Source: an uncultured Pseudomonadales bacterium
GTDB lineage: Bacteria; Patescibacteriota; Microgenomatia; UBA1400; UBA1449
Direction: 5' to 3'
Assembly: GCA_964386355.1 (NCBI GenBank)
Contig: CAYLQQ010000002.1
Coordinates: forward strand, 45,374-109,373
Length of the DNA stretch: 64,000 nt
Part shown: positions 1,895-35,290 of the stretch, piece after piece
How positions within the stretch are numbered: position 1 is the first letter of the stretch
Layout: every line of letters starts with the position of its first letter
Notes under the pieces: model-generated
Databases searched by the model: none
What the model was told of the DNA's origin: nothing
The model's input: only the letters and a program-made list of their open reading frames with translations
Program-made: the position numbers and the translations under genes

Positions 1895-4150
1895 TCAATA
1901 CTCCGGAAGGATATTATAAACAATTGTTCCCTCGTATAGATCAGATGGCTGAAGATAATTTACCTCTATTGCATAGCTTACATAAACCGTTTTTTCTTCA
2001 GCTTCTTGTGAGGACATGACGCTGTGTGAGATGGTGCTTAAAGGACCAAATTTTGCTGATGCATTTGACCACCCCTCCACTCTTGTATCAGATGTATTTA
2101 CGCCCACCCAGCCCGTATTAACGTTCCGTACTATGCCATTTGGTGCTGACCATATTTGTGGGGTTTGCCATGTGACAGAAGTTGCGGCAAATTCATCAAT
2201 ATTATTATCGGGGTAGTTCCCCTGCATTTGATTATACAGTTTGACGCTAACATCATAGCCATAGTCTGTATTGCTGTTTACCGTCAGCTTGTGAGATCCG
2301 AACTTCGGTACGCCAACACTGAGATTACCGAATGGAAGGGTAGTGTGGGTTGTGTTTATATTTGTTGTAATTCCGTTGTTTGAAGTTCCTGTAGGTACAC
2401 CTTCGATAGCAAAAGATAAGCTAGGAGTAGCTCGATGGTATATATCAAATGTTTGTCCATCACTTTGTACTGCTGAAAATGATTGTAGAAGCAAGAGATC
2501 TGAATATATGGTTTGCTCAATGGGGTATGTTGTATAGTCGCCTGCGGTTTTATTGATTCGGATGTAGTACAGAGGATGTCCACCATTTACGGTTGATTTA
2601 GTCCATTCATTCGGAACAGTATAGTACACATTTCCAGCACTTGTAAATGTGCTAGCTCCTGAGTTGCTATTAGATATTGCAAGGGTAGACCAGGTATCAC
2701 AAGGAGTATTGATATCCAAGTTTGAGCCGCAGTAAGACCAAACGGTTATAATACCAGAACCTGCACCTTTGGTTTGTAGTTGGGTATTTACACCGCTAAA
2801 CTGCGTGTGATTACCCAGGTAAAGGTAATCATTAGAATTGTCAAAAATCTGGTAGCTGCCCTGATCAAAACTGGCATTATCTTGACTATCAGCCAAGTAC
2901 TCATTTGTATCAGATGCCAAGCCACCTCTTGCCAGCTGTTTCCAGGTGTTTGAGCTGTCATAAAACCAAGCTTGTGAAAATGGTATTAAATTGGCATTAT
3001 AATCTGTATTGATCGTACGGTTTGTGCCTTCGATAGAGAAATTGGTTGGTACATTGCTTGTGCGCCAGTTTCTAAATTTGAATATAGGGGCATATCTTGA
3101 GTACGTTTCCCCATCCAAATTAAAAGAAATTATATTGTTTGAAGTTATTAGCGGGTAACTGTTTTGGGTTTGGTTAAAGTAGTCGCTTTCTCCTGTATTG
3201 GTAAACTCACTAGCAGAACTCCAGGCTGAACCTACAGATATTTTGCCAAATAAGCTGTCTGGTTGCCATAAATCTACAGCATAGCTTTTTGCTTCATTAC
3301 CGCTTAAGCTATTATCGTCAGTAATCTGAAAAACATAAGTATACGTATATGACTGTCCTCCAGAAAGACTATCATCAGTAATCAAACCGGCTGTAATTAC
3401 ATTTTCATCATTCTGGTATAAAAATTCATTATTTGGGAAAAAGCTGGGTACTTCTAGGGCATGTATCATGTAATCATTATCAGTACCGGTAGCTGGGTCA
3501 GAACCGGTGAGTGTTAGGCTAATCCCAGGAGCTGTGTATGTAATGTCAGCCACGCTCTGAATAGCTGCGCTTGGTGTGACGGTACCAGGAGCTGTATCAT
3601 GATCAGAAATAAAAGCATTTTCATCAAATAAGCTTGGTGCAAACGAAATGTAAGGTCCAGTCATTCCAGTACCAGCTGTGGATGAGCTAAAGGCACCATG
3701 CACCACAATCCTATCGGGATATATGGTATAGATTTGGGTATATTCTCCATCATTACTAGAACCGCAAGCTCCGTCTGTAAAATCATAGAGATCCCCGCTT
3801 ACTGAGATGACAATTCTTGTTTGAGTAGATTCCAAAAGGTGTATTGAAGCATTACTTTCACAAAACATGCTGTTTGTATCTCGTGTGACTAAACCCATTC
3901 CATATAACCGATTTGAAGTGCTACTAGTATCGATAATATTAGTGCTGCTTGAGCTGGGAATAACTAAGCTCGATAGTACTCCCCCGAGATCGCTCCTAAA
4001 CGTTGCTTTCCAGCTCGGGGTGGAATTACTGTTAACAACAATTGTGGTTGCAGTTATAGAGTCTACGCTCACTGATGCGGCATATACTTGTTGAGTGCAG
4101 GTCAGAAAGGTGAACGATATGAGAAATAGAAAGATACATGTTAATCGCAT
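1895..4150 (-). CDS. Large secreted surface protein with a C-terminal domain paralogous to the neighbouring 369-aa protein (WxL-like, tentative)
   Basis: Sec signal peptide (MRLTCIFLFLISFTFLTCTQQVYA/AS) and a Ser/Thr/Asn-rich beta-type composition. The last ~185 aa align with the C-terminus of the 4229..5338 product (TLPFGNLSVGVPKFGSHKLTVNSNTDYGYDVSVK...NTGWVGVNTSD...YVSYAIEVNYLQPSDLYEGTIVYNILPEY). Confidence 0.7.
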   Translation of the reverse strand: MRLTCIFLFLISFTFLTCTQQVYAASVSVDSITATTIVVNSNSTPSWKATFRSDLGGVLSSLVIPSSSSTNIIDTSSTSNRLYGMGLVTRDTNSMFCESNASIHLLESTQTRIVISVSGDLYDFTDGACGSSNDGEYTQIYTIYPDRIVVHGAFSSSTAGTGMTGPYISFAPSLFDENAFISDHDTAPGTVTPSAAIQSVADITYTAPGISLTLTGSDPATGTDNDYMIHALEVPSFFPNNEFLYQNDENVITAGLITDDSLSGGQSYTYTYVFQITDDNSLSGNEAKSYAVDLWQPDSLFGKISVGSAWSSASEFTNTGESDYFNQTQNSYPLITSNNIISFNLDGETYSRYAPIFKFRNWRTSNVPTNFSIEGTNRTINTDYNANLIPFSQAWFYDSSNTWKQLARGGLASDTNEYLADSQDNASFDQGSYQIFDNSNDYLYLGNHTQFSGVNTQLQTKGAGSGIITVWSYCGSNLDINTPCDTWSTLAISNSNSGASTFTSAGNVYYTVPNEWTKSTVNGGHPLYYIRINKTAGDYTTYPIEQTIYSDLLLLQSFSAVQSDGQTFDIYHRATPSLSFAIEGVPTGTSNNGITTNINTTHTTLPFGNLSVGVPKFGSHKLTVNSNTDYGYDVSVKLYNQMQGNYPDNNIDEFAATSVTWQTPQIWSAPNGIVRNVNTGWVGVNTSDTRVEGWSNASAKFGPLSTISHSVMSSQEAEEKTVYVSYAIEVNYLQPSDLYEGTIVYNILPEY

Positions 4151-5482: not shown

Positions 5483-7180
5483 ATGATAGAAGATATTAAA
5501 ATTGTATCAGGATCAAGTATCATTTATACTCAGAGCATGGTACTTTCTGACGATGCATTACTAGAACAGTCACTCCAGGATATTGGGATTAAATCTTACA
5601 AGGATCCCTTTGGTATGCCTGACACGTTTATATATGATCCCATAAAACCCATACAAGAAAAAGAAGGCAGCAAACGGCAAGTCCGCTTTACCCAACTGCT
5701 GAACTATTCGTTTCCAGAAGAGATAGAAGGTGGAGTAGCCGAGGTAGGGGAGGTGATATATATCGGCGATGGGGTGTGCCGGGTGGTCGGCTTATCGAAA
5801 GCTGAAATCGAAGATGTAATCAATGTTAAAACAGGTAAGGGTTGGGAAAAGGCACTCATCTTAGGTATAGAAGATACCCATATTGAGTCAGTTGTTCTTG
5901 GAGATTATTCAAATATCAAACAGGGCGACCAGGTAATCGCAACTAACTCAAGGTTAAAAGTGCCTGTTGGTAAAACTCTGTATGGCCGGGTAATTAGTCC
6001 TCTCGGAGTGCCTATAGATGGTAAGGGCAAGATTGAACCCGAAACGTACCGGGATGTGGAATTTCCAGCCCCATCAGTTATGGAGCGTGAGCCCATTTTT
6101 GAACCCCTAAAAACAGGTGAGATGGTTATAGATGCTACGATCCCTATCGGTTTAGGCCAGAGAGAATTGGTGATAGGAGACCGAAAAAGCGGGAAGAGCA
6201 GGTTTGCTATCGACATCATTTCAAACCAAAAAGGCAGAAACATGATCTGTGTATATGTTGGAGTTGGAATGCAGGCTGCTAAGGCAAAGGCTACGCTTGA
6301 GCTTTTGGAATCTAGAGAGGCCATGGATTACACCATCATGGTTGTATCTACTTCTGATGATCCTCCGTCACTACAGTACATCTCTCCATATGTAGGTACT
6401 GCCATAGCGGAGCATTTTATGTATGCAGGCAAAAATGTCTTGATTATTTATGATGATCTATCAAAACAAGCAAAAGCTTATCGGCAGGTTTCATTGCTGT
6501 TGAAACGCTCGCCAGGTCGAGATGCATATCCTGGTGATATCTTCTTTTTACATTCCAGGCTACTTGAACGCTCATCAAAAATGCATCGCAAGCTGGGAGG
6601 AGGTGCCATTACTGCCCTACCCATTGCCGAAACCCAGTCCGGTGATATATCTGATTACATCATCACCAATCTCATGTCTATTACAGATGGGCACATTTAT
6701 CTGGATGCAAATATGATGCATGAGGGAATTTTACCGGCAGTAAACTCACAAGCCTCAGTTTCCCGTATCGGGAGTAAGGTCCAGTCAAGTTTGCTAAAAA
6801 AGGTAGGAGAGCTTGCTTCGAGAGCTCTAGCCCGGTATGCAGAGTTAAAATCATTTGAAACGATTAACACCGAAGTTGCAGAGGAAACACTTCGGGATAT
6901 ACGGAGAGGCAAAAAAGTAAAGGAAATGTTAGCTCAAGTATCATCAGTAAATTATTCTACAGATGAGATAGTAGTTTTGCTCCATTTAGTAACTTCAGAT
7001 AAGCTGGAGATGATCGATCTTACAGACCTGTCTAAGTTTAAGCTGGAATTCCTGGAATACTATAGAAAAATTGTGACTCCTGAATTTAGAGGTAAATGTG
7101 AATCGTCAAAAGACCTCAAAGATATCGATGGGGAAGTGTCTGTTATGCTGGATAGGTTTTTAAAGCAACGTACAAGTTAG
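5483..7180 (+). CDS. atpA: F-type ATPase F1 alpha subunit with an N-terminal extension
   Basis: P-loop GDRKSGKS, followed by ...LIIYDDLSKQAKAYRQVSLLLKRSPGRDAYPGDIFFLHSRLLERS...ALPIAETQSGDISDYIITNLMSITDGHIYLD, all classic alpha-subunit blocks. The beta-barrel motif GEVIYIGDGVCRVVGL starts near residue 89, against about 30 in canonical alpha. An alternative start at M45 is possible. Confidence 0.93.
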   Translation: MIEDIKIVSGSSIIYTQSMVLSDDALLEQSLQDIGIKSYKDPFGMPDTFIYDPIKPIQEKEGSKRQVRFTQLLNYSFPEEIEGGVAEVGEVIYIGDGVCRVVGLSKAEIEDVINVKTGKGWEKALILGIEDTHIESVVLGDYSNIKQGDQVIATNSRLKVPVGKTLYGRVISPLGVPIDGKGKIEPETYRDVEFPAPSVMEREPIFEPLKTGEMVIDATIPIGLGQRELVIGDRKSGKSRFAIDIISNQKGRNMICVYVGVGMQAAKAKATLELLESREAMDYTIMVVSTSDDPPSLQYISPYVGTAIAEHFMYAGKNVLIIYDDLSKQAKAYRQVSLLLKRSPGRDAYPGDIFFLHSRLLERSSKMHRKLGGGAITALPIAETQSGDISDYIITNLMSITDGHIYLDANMMHEGILPAVNSQASVSRIGSKVQSSLLKKVGELASRALARYAELKSFETINTEVAEETLRDIRRGKKVKEMLAQVSSVNYSTDEIVVLLHLVTSDKLEMIDLTDLSKFKLEFLEYYRKIVTPEFRGKCESSKDLKDIDGEVSVMLDRFLKQRTS

Positions 7181-7273: not shown

Positions 7274-8158
7274 ATGGCCAAAATAAATGAAATAAAGGAG
7301 CAGCAAATTGTGGTATCTGCAGTAGGAGAATTTTCAAATTCTTTGCAGCAGATAGCGACCATGCGGATGGTATCGTTGCGGAAAGTGGTTTTAGCAAGCC
7401 GGCGTTTTGTGGATGAAGCTACAGTTATCTTACGCGATTTAAAACGCGAACGGCAAGCACAGCTTATTGGAAAGCTAAAGAAAATAGATAAACGCTTTGC
7501 CAAACGGAGAACTCAGCGGGAAGCGATTATTGTTTTATCTTCCTACCAAGGGTTGTGTGGTTCTTATAATGTAGAAATATTTAACCGAATTGATAAGGTA
7601 CTTCCTGTACATCTAGAAGCTGATTATTTTGTTATTGGTTCAAAAGGTCAGGATTATTTTCGCAGGTTACTGCGTAAACATCCGAAACTCAATTTTTACC
7701 CCTATGATATTCCAGAGAGTGTTGGGATAGAGCACTTGCGCCGGCTTATAAATATGTTTCCTTACTATGATCATATTCACCTTATTTATTCCAAGTATGT
7801 GAATACAACTACCAGAGATGTTGTTTTTCTTGAATTAGTTGAACCTGCCTTTGAGGAGGATGAAAAGAAAGAAGAGCCAGAAAAAGAAGATAATAAAGGC
7901 GCATATATTTTTGAACCAGACCTTGAAGAACTTATTGAAAATGTAGCTAACAAATTACGGTATGCCCTTTTTCGGCAGCAAATATTGGATTCAAAACTAT
8001 CACTGTACAGTTCTCAAATGGTTGCTATGCAAAATGCGACGGATAATGCAAAGACACTTCTCAAAGACCTACAAATGGAATATAACAAAGCCCGTCGTAA
8101 GAATATTGATAAAAAAATACAAGAAGTCCAAGCAGGCCGAGCCCTGTGGGCAAATTAG
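7274..8158 (+). CDS. atpG: F-type ATPase F1 gamma subunit
   Basis: The N-terminal helix (IKEQQIVVSAVGEFSNSLQQIATMRMVSLRK) and C-terminal helix (...MEYNKARRKNIDKKIQEVQAGRALW) fit the gamma pattern (...NKARQAxITxEIxEIxxGAxAL). The gene lies between atpA and atpD. Confidence 0.85.
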   Translation: MAKINEIKEQQIVVSAVGEFSNSLQQIATMRMVSLRKVVLASRRFVDEATVILRDLKRERQAQLIGKLKKIDKRFAKRRTQREAIIVLSSYQGLCGSYNVEIFNRIDKVLPVHLEADYFVIGSKGQDYFRRLLRKHPKLNFYPYDIPESVGIEHLRRLINMFPYYDHIHLIYSKYVNTTTRDVVFLELVEPAFEEDEKKEEPEKEDNKGAYIFEPDLEELIENVANKLRYALFRQQILDSKLSLYSSQMVAMQNATDNAKTLLKDLQMEYNKARRKNIDKKIQEVQAGRALWAN

Positions 8159-8164
8159 CTATCC

Positions 8165-11973
<3,809 letters not shown>

Positions 11974-19929: not shown

Positions 19930-21810
19930 TTAATTATTTTTTACAAATAATCCAAGTATAGGCTTTTCTGTACTTTTAAAATCCTCGCTTTTCATCTGCA
20001 CTGACTGCGTGTTTGATCCGGCATTGAAGTTGATCCAGGCTTGCTCAAGTAAGCCTTCATCAACATAGGTCGGAATATTAAATAAACTTCCAAATGGCGG
20101 GACGGAACCGGGTCGTAAGCCCGTGACCTTTAGTAACGTATCCTTATCTACTAGAGCAACATCTTTAAATCCAGTTGCTTGCTTAAATGCTTTTAGGTCA
20201 AGTTTAGATGCAGCTGAGACAACAACCATGATGGGTTTGCCATCAGCCATACAAACCAAGGCTTTAGCACCGGATTCTATGGAAGTTCCTCTAGCTTGTG
20301 CGGCCTCTTCGCTGGTAAACACAGGTTTATGCTCGAATTTCTTGTACTCAACTTTTTCATTATCTAAGTAATTGCAGATCTGCTCAAAGATCGATTTAGA
20401 AGTAGTCTGTTTCATAGAGCGGATCTGAATACCCAGCTCTTTCATCTGTTCTTCTGAGATGGGGCTGGGGGCATCCATCACTGCCGTTCTACCTGTTGAG
20501 GTCATCGGGAAGGCAATTGCCTCTTTAAGAGAGCTTTGGTTACTTAATAGCATGACAAACCTGTCTAAACCCAATGCTAGACCACCATGTGGCGGAGTTC
20601 CAAGACGAAACGCTTCAAGCATATGACCAACTGATGCTTCAATTTCTTCTTTAGAATATCCCATTATCTCAAACGTTTTATAAAGAGCGTTTGGGTTATG
20701 TGCCCGGATAGATCCTCCACCCATTTCGTATCCATTACAAACAAGGTCATATTGTGTTGTGAGAATATTCTCAATATTTTTCCCTTCCAGATGATCGGCA
20801 ATAAACTCATCTTTAGGCTGAGAAAACGGGTTGTGAGTGAATGTCCAGCCGCTTTTACCGTCACGCACCTCGGCCACGTCTTCTTTATTTACTTTCTTGA
20901 AAAATGGAAAGTCTACTACCCAAGCAAAAGCTAATACTCCATCCTTCTTTTCCTGTTCCGTTCGGATATCAAACCTGTCTGCACCATAGGTTTTAATAGC
21001 TTCATCATAAGTAATTATGGGAAATTTCCCTTCTCTTAGTTTACCTCCTACAGCCAAGATTGCTGCTTTGGTAGCCTGTTCAACCATTTCCATTACGTCC
21101 TCTCGTTTGACAAAGGACATCTCCAAATCAAGCTGGGTAAACTCAAATCCCCGGTCAGCCCGCAGATCCTCATCGCGGATGCAACGGGCAATCTGGAAAT
21201 AGCGTTCAAAGCCGGCTGTCATCAAAAGCTGTTTGTACTGCTGGGGTGATTGGGGCAAGGCATAGAACTTGCCTGGTTGGAAACGGGAAGGAACCACAAA
21301 ATCTCGGGCGCCTTCTTTGGTTGATTTGGTCAGCATGGGTGTCTCGATCTCGACAAAATCATTGGCAAATAAAGACTTGCGGAACTCTTCGATGAGCTTA
21401 CTTCGAAGCCTGATTGCTTTTTGCAGACGCTCACGTCGAAGGTCCAGGTATCTGTATTTTAACTTGAGCTCTTCATCAAGTTGAGTGCCATCAGTATCTA
21501 TGGGGAAGGGTAGTTCTTTGCATTCATTTAACAGGCTAAATGATGATGCTTGAATTTCGATTGCGCCGGTAGGAAGGTCTTTATTTACCATTTGCTCGGG
21601 ACGGTTATTAACTATACCGACTACTTCAACCACATCTTCCTGACTGAGTTTTCCCATTTTTGAGTCGCCCACTACCTGCACCTTGCCCGATCTATCGCGA
21701 AGCTCGATGAAAACTAATTTGCCGTGATCGCGGACCGTATCAACCCAACCTTGTAGCAAGATCTCCTCACCAATCTTTTTAAATGTTTCAAGTGCGAGTG
21801 TGCGTTTCAT
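19930..21810 (-). CDS. aspS: Aspartyl-tRNA synthetase (bacterial-type core without the GAD insertion) fused to a C-terminal YbaK/ProX-like aminoacyl-tRNA deacylase domain
   Basis: OB-fold N-terminus (LQGWVDTVRDHGKLVFIELRDRSG), FYALPQSPQQYKQLLM, motif 2 YFQIARCIRDEDLRADRGFEFTQLDLEMSF, motif 3 GGLALGLDRFVMLL. The last ~155 aa (...KFEHKPVFTSEEAAQARGTSIESGAKALVCMADGKPIMVVVSAASKLDLKAF...LRPGSVPPFG...) fit the YbaK-family pattern. Confidence 0.9.
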   Translation of the reverse strand: MKRTLALETFKKIGEEILLQGWVDTVRDHGKLVFIELRDRSGKVQVVGDSKMGKLSQEDVVEVVGIVNNRPEQMVNKDLPTGAIEIQASSFSLLNECKELPFPIDTDGTQLDEELKLKYRYLDLRRERLQKAIRLRSKLIEEFRKSLFANDFVEIETPMLTKSTKEGARDFVVPSRFQPGKFYALPQSPQQYKQLLMTAGFERYFQIARCIRDEDLRADRGFEFTQLDLEMSFVKREDVMEMVEQATKAAILAVGGKLREGKFPIITYDEAIKTYGADRFDIRTEQEKKDGVLAFAWVVDFPFFKKVNKEDVAEVRDGKSGWTFTHNPFSQPKDEFIADHLEGKNIENILTTQYDLVCNGYEMGGGSIRAHNPNALYKTFEIMGYSKEEIEASVGHMLEAFRLGTPPHGGLALGLDRFVMLLSNQSSLKEAIAFPMTSTGRTAVMDAPSPISEEQMKELGIQIRSMKQTTSKSIFEQICNYLDNEKVEYKKFEHKPVFTSEEAAQARGTSIESGAKALVCMADGKPIMVVVSAASKLDLKAFKQATGFKDVALVDKDTLLKVTGLRPGSVPPFGSLFNIPTYVDEGLLEQAWINFNAGSNTQSVQMKSEDFKSTEKPILGLFVKNN

Positions 21811-21849
21811 ATATCTCCTTTAATCATTAATAATTTGAACAATAGGTAC

Positions 21850-22003
21850 AAAAAAACCGCCATAGTTCCCCATCAAAAAGGGCCAATCTGGCGGTACCAC
21901 CTAATTCTTTACTTATCCTGCTATTACGGGCTTACCCGTTCCGGTTATTACTCCGGACAGCTCGTCCTTTGTCAGAGGACTCAGACGCTTGTATGATTTA
22001 TTA
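21850..22003 (-). promoter_or_regulatory. T-box-like tRNA-sensing leader of aspS (specifier GAC) with intrinsic terminator
   Basis: The minus strand carries AUUAGGUGGUACCGCC (T-box sequence). It overlaps a terminator CCGCCAGAUUGGCCC...GGGGAACUAUGGCGG+U7. A 5' hairpin GUCCU-CUGACAA-AGGAC carries the Asp codon GAC followed by A. A TTGTAT-17-TATAAT promoter lies just upstream (-10 at 22010..22015). Confidence 0.75.
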
Positions 22004-22064
22004 GTAATAATTATAAAATATGAGGGAAAAAAATACAAACTGAAATCAAAACCTAATTTAATTA

Positions 22065-22092
22065 TTGACGAGAGCGAAGTTTACTATAGAAT
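22065..22092 (+). promoter_or_regulatory. Sigma70-like promoter, divergent from the aspS leader
   Basis: TTGACG-16 nt-TAGAAT. Confidence 0.5.
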
Positions 22093-22098
22093 AATTAG

Positions 22099-22248
22099 GC
22101 TATGAATTGCAGATCCAATTACCAACACCTTACCAAATGCCAAGTCCGCTTTATGTGGATTATTTTGGGTGGTATTAAGGAGGTTCTTGGGTAAGTTTGT
22201 ATAAAAAGATAGAAAACCAAAACCTCCTTAAACCAAGGAGGTTTTTTT
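22099..22248 (+). ncRNA. Candidate ~150-nt leader or small RNA with a possible 30-codon leader ORF and alternative terminator/antiterminator pairing
   Basis: The promoter is followed by the hairpin AACCUCCUUAAACCAAGGAGGUU+U7 at 22221..22248. An upstream copy UUAAGGAGGUU (22175..22185) can pair with the 5' arm of that hairpin instead. The small ORF 22102..22194 ends exactly over the upstream copy. Confidence 0.3.
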
Positions 22249-22255
22249 ATGCCCT

Positions 22256-22444
22256 ATGATGAAACCGCAACTTCTTTCTCAATCAACCGATTCAAACCTG
22301 TATGTAAGCAGAGGCACTGAACTGCCTTGGCAGTATGTATATCGGCAACTACGCCTACATAAGCTTTCAGATGTAACCAGCTATCAAGTTAACGGTAATT
22401 TGTACATCGTTGTTTCGGTGGGAAAGGAGAAAAATAATGCATAA
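22256..22444 (+). CDS. Hypothetical small protein (orphan)
   Basis: 62-aa ORF with no recognisable motif. The better-placed SD (AAGGAGG, 7 nt) actually serves an ATG at 22249 in another frame (23 codons), so the coding assignment is uncertain. Confidence 0.25.
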   Translation: MMKPQLLSQSTDSNLYVSRGTELPWQYVYRQLRLHKLSDVTSYQVNGNLYIVVSVGKEKNNA

Positions 22445-22494
22445 TTTTAAAATATCAATGTTCAAAATAGTTAATAATTTTATTGGAGGTAAAT

Positions 22495-22689
22495 ATGCCT
22501 AGAGAAATGGATAGTCCTATAGTGGGGGCATCTTACATGCCGGATCCTGAAAATGCTAGGAGAGAGTTAGTGCATGCTGTAGCAGAAGCACAGAAATTAC
22601 TGGAACTACATGGAATAGATTCCTCTGCATTAAGCATGAGCCCACTGGAAACATTATCAGTAGCAGCGCAAATACAAACGTATTCATAA
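22495..22689 (+). CDS. Hypothetical small protein (orphan)
   Basis: A GGAGG SD lies 6 nt upstream of the ATG at 22495, and a terminator follows. No family recognised. Confidence 0.45.
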   Translation: MPREMDSPIVGASYMPDPENARRELVHAVAEAQKLLELHGIDSSALSMSPLETLSVAAQIQTYS

Positions 22690-30885: not shown

Positions 30886-31404
30886 ATGTTTGATACTTTA
30901 TTTATATACACCCTAACAGTAATTATTTACATTGGCATTCTTTTCTTTTTCTTTTGGAGGCGTAATAGAAAACAAGAAGAACAGCTTAATGCTTTTTTGA
31001 AAGAAGCTAAAGAAAAACTTGAATTGCATAGAAAAGAGGCAAAAGTTCAAGCCTCAGGTAAAGTTGCCAAAGCATTTGAGCTGATCAAACGTTTACAAGG
31101 TGTTGCTGAGGATTTGGAGGGTCAAGTACAGACAGAGTATGAAAAAGTACTGGAAGAAGCCCAGCAGCAGAAAAAAGATATCATCGCTGAAGCACGCAGA
31201 CAATCTAAAGAAATACTTGAAGGAGCTGATGGAGAGCTCGCTCAGTATAAAGAAGAACGTAAGCGGGAAATTGAGAAAAACCTAGTGAAATTAGTAATGA
31301 GTGTCACTGAAAAGGTAGTCGGTAGGGGATTAACGCGTGAAGACCAAGTTGATCTGATCAGGGAAGCTGTTGAGGAAGTCAGGAAAGAAAAGGGACATTT
31401 ATAA
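30886..31404 (+). CDS. atpF: F-type ATPase subunit b (peripheral stalk)
   Basis: A single N-terminal TM (LTVIIYIGILFFFFW) followed by a ~140-aa charged coiled coil (…EEAQQQKKDIIAEARRQSKEILEGA…). It sits directly upstream of atpH. Confidence 0.8.
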   Translation: MFDTLFIYTLTVIIYIGILFFFFWRRNRKQEEQLNAFLKEAKEKLELHRKEAKVQASGKVAKAFELIKRLQGVAEDLEGQVQTEYEKVLEEAQQQKKDIIAEARRQSKEILEGADGELAQYKEERKREIEKNLVKLVMSVTEKVVGRGLTREDQVDLIREAVEEVRKEKGHL

Positions 31405-31431
31405 ATTGCTTACGTTTACTCTAAAGCATAT

Positions 31432-32010
31432 ATGGAAAAAGGTGTTGATAAATTAGCAAAACAACTGCTCTCTCAAATCTATACCACATCAGAACTTAAA
31501 AAAACTTCTCTGGCGTTAGAAGAACTATCACACTCTTCAACTTTTAAGGCAGAAACGCGCGCTATAGTAGCTAATCCTAAATTAGCTGATGAAGCTAAAG
31601 CAACACAATTACTAAAACTGTTTGATGAAATAGATATTCCTATAATCCAATCGTTTTTTTCAGGGGTTTTTAGTGAAGGAGAGTTCTGGATGTTTTCCTC
31701 CAAACAATTCGATTACTTCGACGAATTTGTAAGAGCTTTTCAGCTGGCTACTGAGAATGTACTAGTGGTATCGATGGTTACTGCTATTGAGCTTTATCCG
31801 CGTGAGCAGATGGTTTTTGCGCAAGAACTAGGGAAAAGCCTCGAAAGACAAGTTGTTTTGGACTTTAAACTTAATTCTGGAATTATCGGCGGAGCTCAGA
31901 TTCGAATCGGAAACCTAGTATTTGACTATACGTTGCGCTCTAAGTTTAATCAGTTTGAAAGGCAATGGATAAGTCGCATGGCAAAAACAGCTGCTTTTGT
32001 GGGGGAGTAA
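31432..32010 (+). CDS. atpH: F-type ATPase subunit delta (OSCP)
   Basis: Size is 192 aa. The C-terminal block VVLDFKLNSGIIGGAQIRIGNLVFDYTLRSKFNQF matches the delta/OSCP signature (..D.sliGG..v.vGd.v.D.S...rL). Confidence 0.8.
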   Translation: MEKGVDKLAKQLLSQIYTTSELKKTSLALEELSHSSTFKAETRAIVANPKLADEAKATQLLKLFDEIDIPIIQSFFSGVFSEGEFWMFSSKQFDYFDEFVRAFQLATENVLVVSMVTAIELYPREQMVFAQELGKSLERQVVLDFKLNSGIIGGAQIRIGNLVFDYTLRSKFNQFERQWISRMAKTAAFVGE

Positions 32011-32012
32011 AG

Positions 32013-32085
32013 TGATCCCACGGGGAATCGAACCCCGGTTTACGGGATGAGAACCCGCTGTCCTAGGCCACTAGACGATGGGACC
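32013..32085 (-). tRNA. tRNA-Glu (anticodon CUC), no encoded CCA
   Basis: The minus strand reads GGUCCCAUCGUCUAGUGGCCUAGGACAGCGGGUUCUCAUCCCGUAAACCGGGGUUCGAUUCCCCGUGGGAUCA. The 7-bp acceptor stem pairs (one G-U), the T-loop is GGUUCGAUUCC, and the anticodon loop is UU-CUC-AU. Confidence 0.9.
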
Positions 32086-32995: not shown

Positions 32996-35290
32996 ATGTA
33001 TTGGGCAGATAAAATCGCAGATCAGATTGTAAAAAGTGGACAGCATAAACCATACTGGGTTGATGATATGAAAACCCCCTCTGGAAGGATTCATGTTGGG
33101 TCTTTACGGGGTGTGTTGATACATGATTTTGTCCACAAAGCTCTTATGCATCAAGGAAAATCCTCGACTTTTACGTATGTGTACAACGACATGGATCCAA
33201 TGGATGCATTACCGGGGTACTTAGATAAAGATGTTTATACTCAACATATGGGTAAGCCTCTGTATAAAATACCTGCACCTGAAGGTAACAAAAGTTTTGC
33301 TCAGTATTATGCCGATGAGTTTACTGGGGTTTTTAATCGCCTTGGGGCAACTCCCAAGATAGTGTTGTCGCATGAGCTGTATGAATCCGGCCAGATGAAT
33401 CCTCTTATACAGATAGCTTTAGATAATGTTGAAGAGTTAAAACACATTTATCGCGACATTGCTCATTACGAATTAGAAAAGAACTGGTATCCATTTCAGG
33501 TATTCTGTGAGCACTGCGGAAAAGAGGGTTCTACTACAACCTATCATTGGGATGGTGAGTATGTATATTACCGATGTGAAAAAAGTAAAGTAGAATGGGC
33601 TGTTGGCTGTGGTCATGAGGGCAAGGTTTCACCCTTTAACGGTACCGGTAAATTTCTTTGGAAAGTTGACTGGCCAGCTCACTGGAAGTTGATTGGTATT
33701 ACTATTGAAGGTGCTGGAAAGGATCATACTTCAGCCGGAGGTTCCCGTGATATGGCTCGGGAAATTGTGAAGCGTGTTTTCAAATACCCTGAGCCGTATG
33801 ACATCCCTTATGAGTGGTTGCTTATCCGTGGTGCCAAAATGTCTTCATCTAAAGGTATTGGAGCCTCTGCTAAAGAGTTTGCTGATCTTTTACCTCCGGA
33901 AGTGGGTAGGTTCTTGTTTGCCCGTACCCATTGCAATACAGTAATCGATTTTGATTTAGTTGGTAATACCATCCCTGATCTATTTGATGAATATGACAAA
34001 TGTGCACAGGCATATTTTAGTGGTAAACAAGATATGTATGCCCGGATTTATGAAGCTTCACAAGTGACTGATAAAAAATCAGATCCCGTATTTTTACCAA
34101 GATTTAGAGATGTAGCAATGTATAGCCAAATGCCCAGCGTTGATCTGATTGCAAAATTTGAACAGGTAAAAGGTTCTATCTTATCACCTGCAGAAAGGCA
34201 TATCCTGGAAGAGAGGGTAAATTACGCAAAGAAGTGGATTAAAAACTATGCTCCGTCTAATTTGAACTTTCAACTCTCAGATAACTCAACTCAATCTGTA
34301 ACACTTAATCAAAAACAGAAAGATTATTTAGGCTCTGTAATAGCGTTATTACAGAAAACATGGAATAAACCGGAAGATTTTCAATTTGAGCTGTTTGAAG
34401 AAACAAAACGACTTGGAATTTCAGCCAAGGAAGCTTTTGCTGCCATTTATCAGATACTGTTAGGTAAGAATTTTGGTCCTAAAGCAGCATGGTTTCTGTT
34501 GGAACAGGATAAAGAAGAGTTAATTAAGCGATTTAGCGAGGTGATAGGAGAAACTAATAAAAGTGATGTATCCATTTCCCAAACTTTTCCAACAATTACT
34601 GACTCAAAGATGATACAAATCAGTACAGCCATTGCACATCAATACCCTTCAGTGCATATCGGGTTTGCCATTATCAGAGGCATACAAGTGGTCAAAACCA
34701 ATGAACAGCTAGAACAAGAAAAAGAAACCCTATATGCAAAACTAAAAAGCATGACGACAGAAGAGATTGGCACTATGCCAGAGATCTTAAGTTATAGAAA
34801 AATGTACAAACAAATGGGGGTAGATTGGCATTCCAGAAGGCCTAGTCCAGAAGCTTTACTACGCCGTATCGTACAAGGCAAGGATTTGTATGCTGTAAAT
34901 ACTTGCGTTGATGCGTACAACCTGATTGTGATGAAATATAGAGTAAGTGTCGGGACATTTGACCTAAAAAATTTGGATTTTCCGGTAGAACTGTGTGTTG
35001 CGAAGGGTGGAGAAAAGATATTGCTTTTGGGCAATGATGAAGAAACCGAAATAAAAGCAGGTGAAGTGTATTATCAAGATCAAACTGGACCATACAATCT
35101 AGATTATAACTACAGAGACTCTCAGCGGGTGAGTGTGAATGAAGACACTGAAGACATTATGATCAACGTTGATGGCGTGTATGATGTTGGTAGACCACAT
35201 GTAGAAAGAGCACTGAAAGAGACTTTAGAGATTATCAAAAAGTACTGCGGTGGAGTGATAGAAGTCGCTGGTATTATTGAAGCGAAATAA
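32996..35290 (+). CDS. lysK: Class I lysyl-tRNA synthetase fused to a C-terminal B3/B4 (PheRS-beta-like, COG3382-type) domain
   Basis: Class I core: PSGRIHVGSLRGVLIHD (HIGH-type), GKDH, KMSSSKG (KMSKS). The C-terminal ~228 aa (34604..35287) read ...ILSYRKMYKQMGVDWHSRRPSPEALLRRIVQGKDLYAVNTCVDAYNLIVMKYRVSVGTFDLKNL...YNYRDSQRVSVNEDTEDIMINVDGV, the B3/B4-domain family pattern. Confidence 0.85.
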   Translation: MYWADKIADQIVKSGQHKPYWVDDMKTPSGRIHVGSLRGVLIHDFVHKALMHQGKSSTFTYVYNDMDPMDALPGYLDKDVYTQHMGKPLYKIPAPEGNKSFAQYYADEFTGVFNRLGATPKIVLSHELYESGQMNPLIQIALDNVEELKHIYRDIAHYELEKNWYPFQVFCEHCGKEGSTTTYHWDGEYVYYRCEKSKVEWAVGCGHEGKVSPFNGTGKFLWKVDWPAHWKLIGITIEGAGKDHTSAGGSRDMAREIVKRVFKYPEPYDIPYEWLLIRGAKMSSSKGIGASAKEFADLLPPEVGRFLFARTHCNTVIDFDLVGNTIPDLFDEYDKCAQAYFSGKQDMYARIYEASQVTDKKSDPVFLPRFRDVAMYSQMPSVDLIAKFEQVKGSILSPAERHILEERVNYAKKWIKNYAPSNLNFQLSDNSTQSVTLNQKQKDYLGSVIALLQKTWNKPEDFQFELFEETKRLGISAKEAFAAIYQILLGKNFGPKAAWFLLEQDKEELIKRFSEVIGETNKSDVSISQTFPTITDSKMIQISTAIAHQYPSVHIGFAIIRGIQVVKTNEQLEQEKETLYAKLKSMTTEEIGTMPEILSYRKMYKQMGVDWHSRRPSPEALLRRIVQGKDLYAVNTCVDAYNLIVMKYRVSVGTFDLKNLDFPVELCVAKGGEKILLLGNDEETEIKAGEVYYQDQTGPYNLDYNYRDSQRVSVNEDTEDIMINVDGVYDVGRPHVERALKETLEIIKKYCGGVIEVAGIIEAK

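What the first reader, a model, noticed from the sequence alone, without database searches (positions are those of the whole stretch)
19930..21810. AspRS fused to a YbaK/ProX-like trans-editing (deacylase) domain and lacking the bacterial GAD insertion
Seen in the sequence:
- The core has bacterial-type signatures (FYALPQSPQQYKQLLM, motifs 2 and 3).
- The segment between motif 2 and 'WVVDFPFF' is short, so there is no GAD domain.
- The last ~155 aa (about 19933..20397) match the YbaK-family pattern, including the Lys-containing strand SGAKALV and PGSVPPFG.

Established knowledge: YbaK and ProX are usually free-standing, or are INS-like parts of ProRS. They clear Cys- or Ala-tRNAPro. AspRS is not known to carry an editing domain.

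Inference: the fusion may be a cis-acting proofreading or tRNA-handling module on AspRS. It may relate to a non-discriminating AspRS (Asp-tRNAAsn) lifestyle, or it may tether a general deacylase to an abundant synthetase in a reduced genome.
Basis: partly seen in the sequence, partly recalled or inferred. Interest (0 to 1): 0.6.

Follow-up and report, generated by a model that had tools for sequence, protein, structure and literature searches.

The report
AspRS fused to YbaK-like deacylase
A candidate-phyla-radiation bacterium's aspartyl-tRNA synthetase, an enzyme class not known to proofread, carries an intact YbaK/ProX-type aminoacyl-tRNA deacylase domain on a short C-terminal tether, and this apparently undescribed combination is conserved in over 160 protein clusters from related uncultured bacteria.

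Summary
Window 19930..21810 (-) is one 626-aa ORF: OB anticodon-binding domain, bacterial-type class II AspRS core without the GAD insertion, about 35 residues of tail and linker, then a PF04073 domain (E 1e-27). The fusion is not an artefact. All 120 best full-length homologues (54-100% identity; Beckwith-, Dojka-, Woesebacteria) share it, with the catalytic Lys (K516) and GXXXP loop at least 98% conserved.

New findings:
- GAD loss is general in Patescibacteria and independent of the fusion.
- The same domain lineage is also fused to archaeal-type AspRS at the syntenic locus and to a GAD-containing AspRS. In WWE3 and Doudnabacteria it is a separate gene just downstream of aspS.
- The domain belongs to a 3OP6/lpg1207-like INS-superfamily subgroup. 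It is not YbaK proper, and it is much closer to 3OP6 than to ProXp-ala.
- All fused AspRSs keep the His ("RDHG") seen in solved Asp/Asn-type enzymes.

Best reading: an active deacylase recruited to AspRS-bound tRNAs, with Asp-tRNAAsn the leading but unproven substrate. The AsnRS, GatCAB and ProRS content of these genomes could not be checked. No searchable paper describes the fusion. Verdict: new variant of a known kind, moderately high interest.

The parts
19930..21810 (-). Whole gene: AspRS-deacylase fusion, 626 aa plus stop codon (19930..19932)
   Evidence: The 100% identical protein P0121 is on independent contigs.
21532..21759 (-). OB-fold anticodon-binding domain (aa 18-93), including His29 in the 'RDHG' motif (21724..21726)
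   Evidence: Pfam PF01336 3e-13. His29 is invariant in 129/129 fused or adjacent-gene AspRSs. It is His in solved Asp/Asn-type enzymes and Leu in the discriminating T. thermophilus enzyme.
20500..21477 (-). Class II (IIb) AspRS catalytic core, bacterial type (aa 112-437)
   Evidence: PF00152 1.7e-107. NF001750 591 bits against cut-off 443. Asp/ATP pocket residues are invariant and identical in fused and unfused relatives.
20941..20961 (-). Site where the bacterial GAD insertion (about 107 aa) is missing (aa 284-290, TEQEKKD)
   Evidence: Two-stretch alignments to NF001750 and to 4RMF (query 13-284 / 275-466 against chain 15-287 / 395-586). No PF02938 hit.
20386..20499 (-). Normal bacterial AspRS C-terminal tail plus a short variable spacer, forming the tether (aa 438-475)
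   Evidence: AF2 pLDDT 55-60 across residues 441-470. The distance FP435 to H494 is 53-61 aa in all 120 fused homologues. No Shine-Dalgarno motif before the junction ATG.
19933..20385 (-). INS/YbaK-superfamily aminoacyl-tRNA editing (deacylase) domain, 3OP6-like subgroup (aa 476-626)
   Evidence: PF04073 1e-27. 3OP6 at E 1e-19. AF2 pLDDT 95, and all 37 significant Foldseek PDB hits are INS-superfamily members, TM 0.8-0.88.
20263..20265 (-). Codon of Lys516, the superfamily's conserved catalytic/substrate-anchoring lysine
   Evidence: Aligns with the Lys of 'FKTLL' in H. influenzae YbaK. 100% conserved in bacterial-type fused, archaeal-type fused and free-standing groups.
20095..20109 (-). GXXXP loop (G568-S-V-P-P572)
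   Evidence: G568, P571, P572 and G574 are at least 98% conserved in all groups.

Best explanation
The gene encodes a functional bacterial-type (GAD-less) aspartyl-tRNA synthetase. Its C-terminus carries, on a length-constrained and probably flexible tether, a catalytically competent INS-superfamily aminoacyl-tRNA deacylase.

Proposed mechanism: the AspRS body supplies tRNA selection through its anticodon-binding OB domain. The tethered domain samples the aminoacylated CCA end of tRNAs held or just released by AspRS (tRNAAsp, and probably tRNAAsn) and hydrolyses a wrong product. This would be cis, or 're-sampling', post-transfer proofreading. YbaK gains tRNAPro specificity in a comparable way by binding ProRS.

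The most likely target is a mis-acylated AspRS product. The only documented one is Asp-tRNAAsn, so the domain may act as a safety valve for Asp-tRNAAsn that is not amidated.

Shown: domain identities, an intact catalytic signature, conservation of the fusion, and its specific, repeated association with AspRS. Inferred: hydrolytic activity, the cis mode of action, and the substrate.
For: 1. Intact active site. K516 and the GXXXP loop, plus H494, T499, S500, R507, F595, N596, G598 and S603, are invariant or nearly invariant in 120 bacterial-type fusions, 47 archaeal-type fusions and 114 free-standing relatives. The domain models confidently (pLDDT 95) and matches only INS-superfamily structures.
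2. The association is with AspRS specifically and recurs on three different AspRS bodies: bacterial-type without GAD, archaeal-type passing the NF003483 Asp-tRNA(Asn) ligase equivalog, and bacterial-type with GAD (P0373). In WWE3 and Doudnabacteria it is a separate gene immediately downstream of aspS.
3. The edit domains of the two main fusion types are mutual nearest neighbours and intermix in the tree, separate from the free-standing clade. Archaeal-type fusions occupy the same syntenic locus as the window gene: SecDF, CCA-adding enzyme, RecJ, AspRS-edit, Peptidase_S11. The AspRS body was exchanged and the edit domain retained.
4. Tether length is tightly constrained at 53-61 aa, with low pLDDT in the linker. 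That fits a domain that must reach a defined site.
5. The fused AspRSs look non-discriminating. His29 is found in 129/129, as in solved Asp/Asn ligases, against Leu in the discriminating T. thermophilus enzyme. The only unfused CPR enzymes with Met29 are the two whose aspS has an AsnRS gene beside it and whose N-terminus is readable.
6. Literature context. Asp-tRNAAsn is the only known AspRS mischarging product (PMC6523644) and is toxic if it escapes (PMC3367201). H. pylori GluRS2 hydrolyses excess Glu-tRNAGln, which is a precedent for such a safety valve (PMC3241645). L. pneumophila, the source of the closest solved free-standing homologue (3OP6), has an experimentally shown non-discriminating AspRS together with AsnRS and GatCAB (PMC4206432).
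Against: - No activity data exist.
- Characterised INS-superfamily enzymes act on small neutral residues (Ala, Cys, Ser, Thr, Abu; PMC11295145), not on Asp.
- The fused domain's invariant residues are the same as those of free-standing relatives that are not next to aspS. Its chemistry was therefore not visibly re-tuned for AspRS.
- The AspRS pocket shows no relaxation relative to unfused enzymes.
- The module is dispensable. 71 of 80 Patescibacteria species representatives lack it near aspS, and unfused tips are scattered inside the fused part of the core tree.
- Many unfused enzymes also have His29 (49 of 71).
- Hydrolysing Asp-tRNAAsn would be wasteful in an organism that depends on transamidation, and I could not determine whether these genomes encode GatCAB or AsnRS.
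- AF2 does not fix the domain's position (pTM 0.73).
Confidence: 0.5

Rival explanations
1. Generic trans-editing factor merely tethered to AspRS. The domain hydrolyses a mischarged tRNA made by another synthetase (for example Ala-tRNAPro, as the JGI/KO label 'Ala-tRNA(Pro) deacylase' suggests, or Ser/Thr/Abu-tRNAs). It is fused to AspRS only for co-expression, stability or genome economy in a reduced genome.
For: - The invariant residues are identical to those of the free-standing clade, whose members are not linked to aspS.
- Known family members handle small neutral amino acids made by other synthetases.
- The same window holds a second synthetase with an appended editing-type domain: class I LysRS + B3_4. 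That suggests a lineage habit of fusing such modules.
- The domain lineage also occurs fused to Peptidase_S11 and RuvX, and as tandem triplets.
- The fusion has been lost repeatedly.
Against: - The partner is AspRS in more than 160 clusters, on three different AspRS bodies, and also in the two-gene operon state. Random tethering would not keep choosing AspRS or survive replacement of the AspRS body at the same locus.
- It is not ProXp-ala by sequence: E 9e-7 against 1e-19 for 3OP6.
- The tether length is constrained.
Confidence: 0.28
2. Non-hydrolytic acceptor-end binding module. The domain binds and shields or holds the aminoacyl-CCA end (for example Asp-tRNAAsn) for hand-off to GatCAB, or it raises tRNA affinity. 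In effect it would substitute for the missing GAD domain.
For: [quoted passage not shown]
- CPR AspRS lacks GAD.
- Appended tRNA-binding domains on synthetases are known, for example the YqeY-like domain on Deinococcus GlnRS (PMC1865053, listed).
Against: - The full catalytic signature is as conserved as in free-standing deacylases.
- A GAD-containing AspRS also carries the domain (P0373).
- Most GAD-less CPR AspRSs manage without it.
Confidence: 0.12
3. Artefact: two adjacent genes joined by a sequencing or assembly error, or by a missed stop codon or frameshift.
For: In two relatives the domain is a separate downstream gene (L023, L089). One archaeal-type fusion is frameshifted (L003). Gene callers sometimes split the ORF (P0003 in L004).
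Against: The ORF is continuous in the window and in independent assemblies with the identical protein. 120 bacterial-type and 47 archaeal-type intact fusions exist across many samples.
Confidence: 0.02

Closest known systems
INS editing domain of bacterial ProRS (cis-editing of Ala-tRNAPro)
   Same: Same fold superfamily (Foldseek TM about 0.7-0.75 to 2J3L and 5ZNJ). Conserved Lys and GXXXP loop. Covalently attached to a class II synthetase.
   Different: INS is inserted between motifs 2 and 3 of ProRS. Here the domain is appended to the C-terminus of AspRS on a linker. Sequence similarity is only E 5e-5. The host synthetase has no known amino-acid misactivation problem.
ProXp-ala fused to the N-terminus of ProRS in Plasmodium, trypanosomatids and other protists
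   Same: A normally free-standing INS-superfamily deacylase fused terminally to a synthetase that lacks an internal editing domain (PMC11295145).
   Different: The partner there is ProRS, whose errors (Ala-tRNAPro) the domain corrects. Here the partner is AspRS, the fusion is C-terminal, and the subfamily is different.
YbaK (Cys-tRNAPro deacylase) working in a ProRS-YbaK-tRNA ternary complex
   Same: A superfamily member that lacks tRNA specificity of its own and borrows it from a synthetase (PMC11286415). The fusion would make that borrowing permanent.
   Different: The window domain fails the YbaK equivalog models (63 vs 153 bits; 24 vs 243 bits). The association here is covalent, and it is with AspRS.
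3OP6 / lpg1207 of Legionella pneumophila and the ~155-aa free-standing clade (labelled YbaK/EbsC family or 'Ala-tRNA(Pro) deacylase')
   Same: Closest relatives by sequence (E 1e-19; 31% identity to 3OP6, 44-49% to the free-standing clade) and by structure. The same set of invariant residues.
   Different: These are single-domain proteins that are not next to aspS, and their function is uncharacterised. Whether this clade equals ProXp-7, -8 or -9 could not be checked because the defining review is not held.
Bifunctional AspRS-GatC fusion (NCBIfam NF009460)
   Same: An AspRS carrying a C-terminal partner from the Asp-tRNAAsn pathway. It is a precedent for functionally coupled AspRS fusions (model listed).
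   Different: The window protein scores 389 bits against a cut-off of 1379, through the AspRS part only. The appended domain is a deacylase fold, not GatC.
H. pylori GluRS2 hydrolysis of excess Glu-tRNAGln; GAD domain of bacterial ND-AspRS
   Same: The concept of a mischarging synthetase that limits release of its own mischarged intermediate (PMC3241645, PMC3367201).
   Different: Those activities use the synthetase's own sites or the GAD domain. No dedicated editing domain is involved.

Membership tests
INS / YbaK superfamily (Pfam PF04073 tRNA_edit) | Profile match above the curated threshold | tested here: met
   97 bits (whole protein) and 100.8 bits (domain alone) against a cut-off of 25.5.
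INS / YbaK superfamily (Pfam PF04073 tRNA_edit) | YbaK-like alpha/beta fold | tested here: met
   AF2 domain model pLDDT 95.2. All 37 significant Foldseek PDB hits are superfamily members, TM 0.8-0.88.
INS / YbaK superfamily (Pfam PF04073 tRNA_edit) | Strictly conserved lysine and GXXXP loop (PMC11286415) | tested here: met
   K516 aligns with the YbaK 'FKTLL' lysine. K516, G568, P572 and G574 are 100% conserved in every group, P571 98-100%.
INS / YbaK superfamily (Pfam PF04073 tRNA_edit) | Hydrolysis of an aminoacyl-tRNA ester | not testable with these tools
   Needs an in vitro deacylation assay.
YbaK proper (Cys-tRNAPro deacylase; TIGR00011, NF007951) | Equivalog model score above cut-off | tested here: not met
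   TIGR00011 63 bits against 153.25. NF007951 24 bits against 243.
ProXp-ala (Ala-tRNAPro deacylase) | Closest sequence and structure relatives are ProXp-ala members | tested here: not met
   5VXB/1VJF at E about 1e-6 against 3OP6 at 1e-19. Foldseek ranks ProXp-ala entries 17th and 37th. The 'Ala-tRNA(Pro) deacylase' label on relatives is an automated JGI name.
ProXp-ala (Ala-tRNAPro deacylase) | Specificity for tRNAPro acceptor-stem elements and Ala | not testable with these tools
   Biochemical property.
Bacterial-type AspRS (NF001750 / TIGR00459) | Equivalog model score above cut-off; class II motifs and aspartate pocket | tested here: met
   591 bits against 443, and 512 against 374. QSPQ..K193, R212, D228, E230, R369 and R417 are invariant.
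Bacterial-type AspRS (NF001750 / TIGR00459) | GAD insertion domain (used as the marker of bacterial-type AspRS in PMC4206432) | tested here: not met
   No PF02938 hit. About 107 residues are missing relative to 4RMF. The same is true of 71 of 80 unfused Patescibacteria enzymes, which are 460-550 aa with one contiguous match to query residues 1-463.
Non-discriminating AspRS | Aspartylates tRNAAsn | not testable with these tools
   Needs aminoacylation assays.
Non-discriminating AspRS | Anticodon-domain residue pattern of ND enzymes | tested here: inconclusive
   His29 as in the Asp/Asn ligases 5W25 and 4RMF, against Leu in the discriminating 6HHV. It is invariant in fused enzymes. AspRSs with an adjacent AsnRS gene have Met. 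This is a single position, and its predictive value rests partly on recalled literature.
Non-discriminating AspRS | Genome encodes GatCAB and/or lacks AsnRS | not tested
   No whole-genome access. There is no AsnRS, GatA or GatB in the window or within 10 kb of any fused aspS.
Cis-editing aminoacyl-tRNA synthetase | Editing-fold domain covalently part of the synthetase and conserved | tested here: met
Cis-editing aminoacyl-tRNA synthetase | The domain hydrolyses the synthetase's own mischarged product | not testable with these tools
   Biochemical property.

The most novel reading that the evidence does not exclude
The appended domain is an Asp-tRNAAsn-directed deacylase. That would be the first dedicated editing domain to correct a tRNA-selection error rather than an amino-acid-selection error. 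It would either make a structurally non-discriminating AspRS functionally discriminating in genomes that have AsnRS, or police the flux of Asp-tRNAAsn into the transamidation pathway. By extension, the uncharacterised free-standing 3OP6/lpg1207-like clade, found in Legionella and Planctomycetes (taxa that carry both AsnRS and GatCAB), would be the trans-acting form of the same activity.
Probability: 0.2. Interest if true: 0.85.

Novelty: new variant of a known kind. Interest (0 to 1): 0.62.

Why it matters
AspRS is one of the synthetases regarded as needing no editing, and INS-superfamily deacylases outside ProRS are described as single-domain proteins. A conserved AspRS-deacylase fusion matters for three reasons.

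1. **It implies an unrecognised fidelity problem at tRNAAsp or tRNAAsn.** The fusion is present on three different AspRS bodies and is also seen as an aspS-deacylase operon. That pattern is a 'Rosetta stone' link.
2. **It gives a testable functional handle on an uncharacterised branch of the INS superfamily** (3OP6-like).
3. **It bears on how reduced-genome CPR bacteria manage Asn-tRNAAsn synthesis and translational quality control.**

It also corrects an annotation problem. These proteins are named plain 'aspartate--tRNA ligase' or 'amino acid--tRNA ligase-related protein', or are split by gene callers. Finally, it shows that GAD is not a reliable marker of bacterial-type AspRS.

Tried and rejected
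- **Literature.** Searches for the fusion, for 3OP6 and for ProXp-7/8/9 found no description. The defining INS-superfamily review (PMID 33837712) and the H. pylori anticodon-domain paper (PMC2654173) are not held. So the domain could not be assigned to ProXp-7, -8 or -9, and the ND determinants could not be fully sourced.
- **CPR complement in the literature.** Searches for the AsnRS/GatCAB complement of CPR found nothing usable.
- **Window and flank annotation.** No ProRS, AsnRS or GatCAB was found. A regex scan for GatA and GatB signature motifs over about 1.5 Mb of held CPR loci found nothing. This is uninformative, because all loci are centred on aspS and the motifs came from memory.
- **Context of true free-standing relatives.** The neighbours are unrelated genes (aconitase, glycosyltransferase, helicase), so there is no functional lead.
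- **'Free-standing' Patescibacteria hit P0003.** Rejected as a mis-called internal start inside a 615-aa fusion.
- **Internal translation start at the junction Met.** Rejected. There is no Shine-Dalgarno motif, and the Met is not conserved outside the closest relatives.
- **Relaxed aspartate pocket in fused enzymes.** Rejected. No column separates fused from unfused enzymes.
- **GAD loss as compensation for, or cause of, the fusion.** Rejected.
- **RNA elements.** An Rfam scan of the window, including the ~700-nt gap upstream of the gene, found only tRNA-Glu.
- **AF2 full-length model.** It gives no confident interdomain geometry (pTM 0.73), and coordinates or PAE were not available to measure distances between sites.
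Full report
**1. The observation**

Window 19930..21810 (minus strand) is a single 626-aa ORF with an ATG start and an AAGGAG ribosome-binding site 5 nt upstream. Pfam finds three domains:
- an OB-fold anticodon-binding domain (aa 18-93);
- a class II D/K/N synthetase core (aa 112-437, E 1.7e-107);
- a PF04073 aminoacyl-tRNA editing domain (aa 494-612, E 1.1e-27, 97 bits against a cut-off of 25.5).

There is no GAD (PF02938) hit. NCBIfam places the synthetase in the bacterial aspS equivalogs (NF001750, 591 bits against 443), but as two stretches. Against the solved AspRS 4RMF, query 13-284 aligns to chain 15-287 and query 275-466 to chain 395-586. About 107 residues are therefore missing, exactly where the GAD insertion lies. 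The identical protein (P0121) is on record from independent assemblies.

**2. The fusion is real and conserved**

All 120 best full-length homologues (54-100% identity, 584-703 aa) carry PF01336 + PF00152 + PF04073. Those with names are Candidatus Beckwithbacteria, Dojkabacteria, Woesebacteria and 'Patescibacteria group'. Across them:
- Lys516 and the GXXXP loop (G568, P571, P572, G574) are at least 98% conserved;
- the edit domain as a whole (mean column conservation 0.59) is about as conserved as the OB domain (0.65);
- the span between the last conserved core motif (FP435) and H494 is confined to 53-61 residues. It consists of the normal bacterial AspRS C-terminal tail plus only 6-12 variable residues.

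AlphaFold2 with a 71-sequence alignment gives mean pLDDT 86 and pTM 0.73. pLDDT is above 90 for residues 480-620 but only 55-60 for residues 441-470. That describes a well-folded domain on a low-confidence, probably flexible linker.

**3. What the C-terminal domain is**

Modelled alone it reaches pLDDT 95. All 37 significant Foldseek hits in the PDB are INS/YbaK-superfamily members, with TM 0.8-0.88. Sequence comparison with solved structures gives:

| Structure | Family | E-value |
|---|---|---|
| 3OP6 (Legionella lpg1207) | uncharacterised | 1e-19 (31% identity) |
| 1DBU | YbaK | 7.5e-8 |
| 2DXA | YeaK | 1e-7 |
| 2CX5 | ProXp-x | 3e-7 |
| 5VXB | ProXp-ala | 9e-7 |
| 5ZNJ | ProRS INS | 5e-5 |

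The domain fails both YbaK equivalog models. It is therefore a member of the superfamily but of a distinct 3OP6-like subgroup.

The 2024 review PMC11295145 lists nine families: INS, YbaK, ProXp-ala, -x, -ST1, -ST2, -7, -8 and -9, the last three of unknown function. It states that, except for INS, members are single-domain proteins, apart from ProXp-ala fused to ProRS in some protists. I could not obtain the review that defines ProXp-7/8/9, so I cannot say whether the 3OP6-like clade is one of them.

In a library of 1.84 billion representative proteins, the domain finds 3515 relatives at E ≤ 1e-3 and 852 at E ≤ 1e-10. Most are free-standing proteins of about 155 aa. The nearest truly free-standing ones (44-49% identity; Planctomycetes among those named) are not next to any synthetase gene.

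**4. The association with AspRS is specific and recurrent**

This is the main new result.

(a) *Mis-called 'free-standing' hits.* The one apparently free-standing Patescibacteria hit examined at the DNA level (P0003) is a mis-called internal start. The DNA encodes a continuous 615-aa fusion.

(b) *A second AspRS body.* An archaeal-type AspRS carrying the same domain first appeared as a frameshifted gene in L003. The reconstructed protein passes the 'aspartate--tRNA(Asn) ligase' equivalog NF003483 (432 bits against 353). A search with it found 47 intact archaeal-type fusions of about 581-653 aa (Gottesman-, Roizman-, Amesbacteria), among close unfused relatives of about 440 aa.

(c) *A third AspRS body.* P0373 (744 aa) is a bacterial-type AspRS with a GAD domain and the same C-terminal domain.

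(d) *The survey of species genomes* (80 GTDB representatives):

| State | Number | Examples |
|---|---|---|
| GAD-less bacterial-type AspRS, no edit domain within 10 kb | 71 | Parcubacteria, Saccharibacteria, Uhr-, Nomura-, Kaiserbacteria |
| Fused | 7 | Dojkabacteria, Torokbacteria |
| Edit domain as a separate gene just downstream of aspS | 2 | WWE3 (L023), Doudnabacteria (L089) |

In WWE3, aspS ends in TAG, followed by a GGGGAG ribosome-binding site and an ATG in another frame. In Doudnabacteria, a TAG TAA double stop is followed by a hairpin.

(e) *One lineage of the domain.* The edit domains of bacterial-type and archaeal-type fusions are each other's nearest relatives and intermix in a neighbour-joining tree, whereas 114 free-standing proteins form a pure separate clade.

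(f) *Same locus.* Archaeal-type fusions lie in the same neighbourhood as the window gene: SecD/SecF, CCA-adding enzyme, RecJ, small ORFs, AspRS-edit, Peptidase_S11.

The simplest history is an ancestral aspS-deacylase gene pair that fused. Later the AspRS body was replaced at the locus while the edit module was kept. On the AspRS-core tree, unfused tips are scattered within the mainly fused region, which indicates repeated loss. Sampling in that tree is biased towards fused sequences.

**5. GAD**

GAD loss is a general property of Patescibacteria bacterial-type AspRS and is independent of the fusion. It is notable in its own right, because GAD has been used as the marker that distinguishes bacterial-type from archaeal-type AspRS (PMC4206432).

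**6. Clues to function**

- *Active site.* The same residues are invariant in both fusion types and in the free-standing clade: H494, T499, S500, R507, A515-K516-A517-L518, G568, P571, P572, G574, F595, N596, G598, S603 and P617. Only one column (553) is fusion-specific. The active site is therefore under the same constraint as in stand-alone deacylases, which argues for a hydrolase and against a degenerate binding module.
- *Synthetase pocket.* The aspartate and ATP pocket of the synthetase is canonical and identical in fused and unfused enzymes. Nothing suggests relaxed amino-acid selection.
- *Known AspRS errors.* Experimental work reports that bacterial AspRSs make no Glu-tRNAAsp/Asn or Asp-tRNAGlu. 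The only known mischarged product is Asp-tRNAAsn (PMC6523644). It can be toxic if it escapes (PMC3367201).
- *Anticodon-binding domain.* Position 29 is His in the solved Asp/Asn ligases 5W25 and 4RMF ('RDHGG') and Leu in the discriminating T. thermophilus enzyme 6HHV ('RDLGG'). All 129 fused or adjacent-gene CPR enzymes have His. Unfused ones have H 49, Q 19 and M 2 (one could not be scored). The two Met cases (L039, L041) are the two of the three unfused loci with an AsnRS gene next to aspS whose AspRS N-terminus is readable; the third (L065) is truncated there.
- *Archaeal-type fusions.* They match the Asp-tRNA(Asn) ligase equivalog.
- *Legionella and Planctomycetes.* L. pneumophila, the source of 3OP6, has an experimentally shown non-discriminating AspRS together with AsnRS, GlnRS and GatCAB. 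In the same paper's survey, the listed Planctomycetes (Pirellula, Planctomyces, Rhodopirellula) also have both AsnRS and GatCAB (PMC4206432). These last points are anecdotal leads, not tests.

**7. Interpretation**

The best-supported explanation (about 0.5) is a catalytically active deacylase that gains tRNA selectivity from its AspRS host. It would proofread, in cis or by re-sampling, an aminoacyl-tRNA bound by AspRS. Asp-tRNAAsn is the leading candidate substrate.

Evidence against this reading:
- characterised superfamily members act on small neutral residues;
- there is no visible re-tuning relative to the free-standing clade;
- the module is dispensable in most CPR lineages;
- I could not establish whether fusion-bearing genomes encode GatCAB or AsnRS.

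Rival explanations:
- *Generic trans-editing factor merely tethered (about 0.28).* This is supported by the second synthetase-editing-fold fusion in the same window, class I LysRS + B3_4, and by rare fusions of the domain to Peptidase_S11 and RuvX.
- *Non-hydrolytic acceptor-end 'trap' substituting for GAD (about 0.12).*
- *Artefact (about 0.02).*

**8. Novelty**

The proteins are in public databases, but they are named only 'aspartate--tRNA ligase', 'aspartate--tRNA(Asn) ligase' or 'amino acid--tRNA ligase-related protein'. In at least one record the gene is split into a separate 'aminoacyl-tRNA deacylase' (P0003). No paper in the searchable library describes an AspRS with an editing domain. 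The parts are known and the combination is new: a new variant of a known kind. A synthetase specialist would find it surprising, and it is directly testable.

Noticed in passing
window 32996..35290 (+): A 764-aa class I LysRS (TIGR00467, 381 bits, aa 1-515; PF01921) carries a C-terminal B3_4 domain (PF03483, E 4.6e-21, aa 600-752). This is the fold of the PheRS-beta editing site. It is a second synthetase not known to have an editing domain carrying an editing-type module in the same window.
   Followed up: partly
L018-L096 (GTDB Patescibacteria species representatives): Bacterial-type AspRS without the GAD insertion (about 460-480 aa) is the general form across Parcubacteria, Saccharibacteria, Uhr-, Nomura-, Kaiserbacteria and others. 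GAD is used in the literature as the marker of bacterial-type AspRS.
   Followed up: yes
P0399, P0471, P0409, P0361, P0364 (representative library hits): The same edit-domain lineage also occurs in other architectures: N-terminal to a Peptidase_S11 D-Ala-D-Ala carboxypeptidase (a gene that neighbours aspS in these CPR loci), fused to RuvX, and as three tandem copies in one protein. I did not check whether these are real fusions or gene-call artefacts.
   Followed up: no
window 8165..10555 (+); also window 1895..4150 (-): A 796-aa ORF with no Pfam match sits tightly between the ATP synthase gamma gene (7274..8158) and beta gene (10558..11973), inside the F1 operon. A second large ORF (751 aa) also has no Pfam match. 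The atpH/atpF-like genes lie about 20 kb away at 30886..32010.
   Followed up: no
L004:609..2456: The NCBI record annotates only the last 160 aa as 'aminoacyl-tRNA deacylase' (P0003), although the ORF is a continuous 615-aa AspRS-deacylase fusion. Annotation pipelines split or mis-name this architecture.
   Followed up: yes
L039:6016-7413, L041:9947-11254, L065:8451-9557: In some unfused Patescibacteria (Uhrbacteria and a relative) a genuine AsnRS gene (NF003037 above cut-off in L039 and L041; the truncated L065 ORF scores 379.5 bits against a cut-off of 414) lies just upstream of aspS. In L039 and L041 the AspRS has Met instead of His at the 'RDHG' position; in L065 the N-terminus is missing.
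   Followed up: partly
L003:5156..6912: An archaeal-type AspRS-deacylase gene is split by a frameshift between about positions 5885 and 5930, upstream of an A-run. This is either a sequencing error or a pseudogene.
   Followed up: partly
L017, L021, L022, L025, L028-L034, L041, L063, L068, L071, L095 (record titles): Several contigs that encode CPR-type AspRS, and that group with Patescibacteria sequences in the core tree, are titled 'uncultured Pseudomonadales' or 'Gammaproteobacteria bacterium'. The taxonomy labels are probably wrong.
   Followed up: no
window 21811..22506: A stretch of about 700 nt upstream of the AspRS start has no called gene and no Rfam match. The only Rfam or ARAGORN hit in the window is tRNA-Glu(CUC) at 32012..32085.
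   Followed up: partly
L006:18341-18772 (about 7 kb beyond the window's 3' end): A D-aminoacyl-tRNA deacylase (PF02580) gene is present in the same genome. The organism therefore keeps at least one stand-alone deacylase in addition to the fused modules.
   Followed up: no
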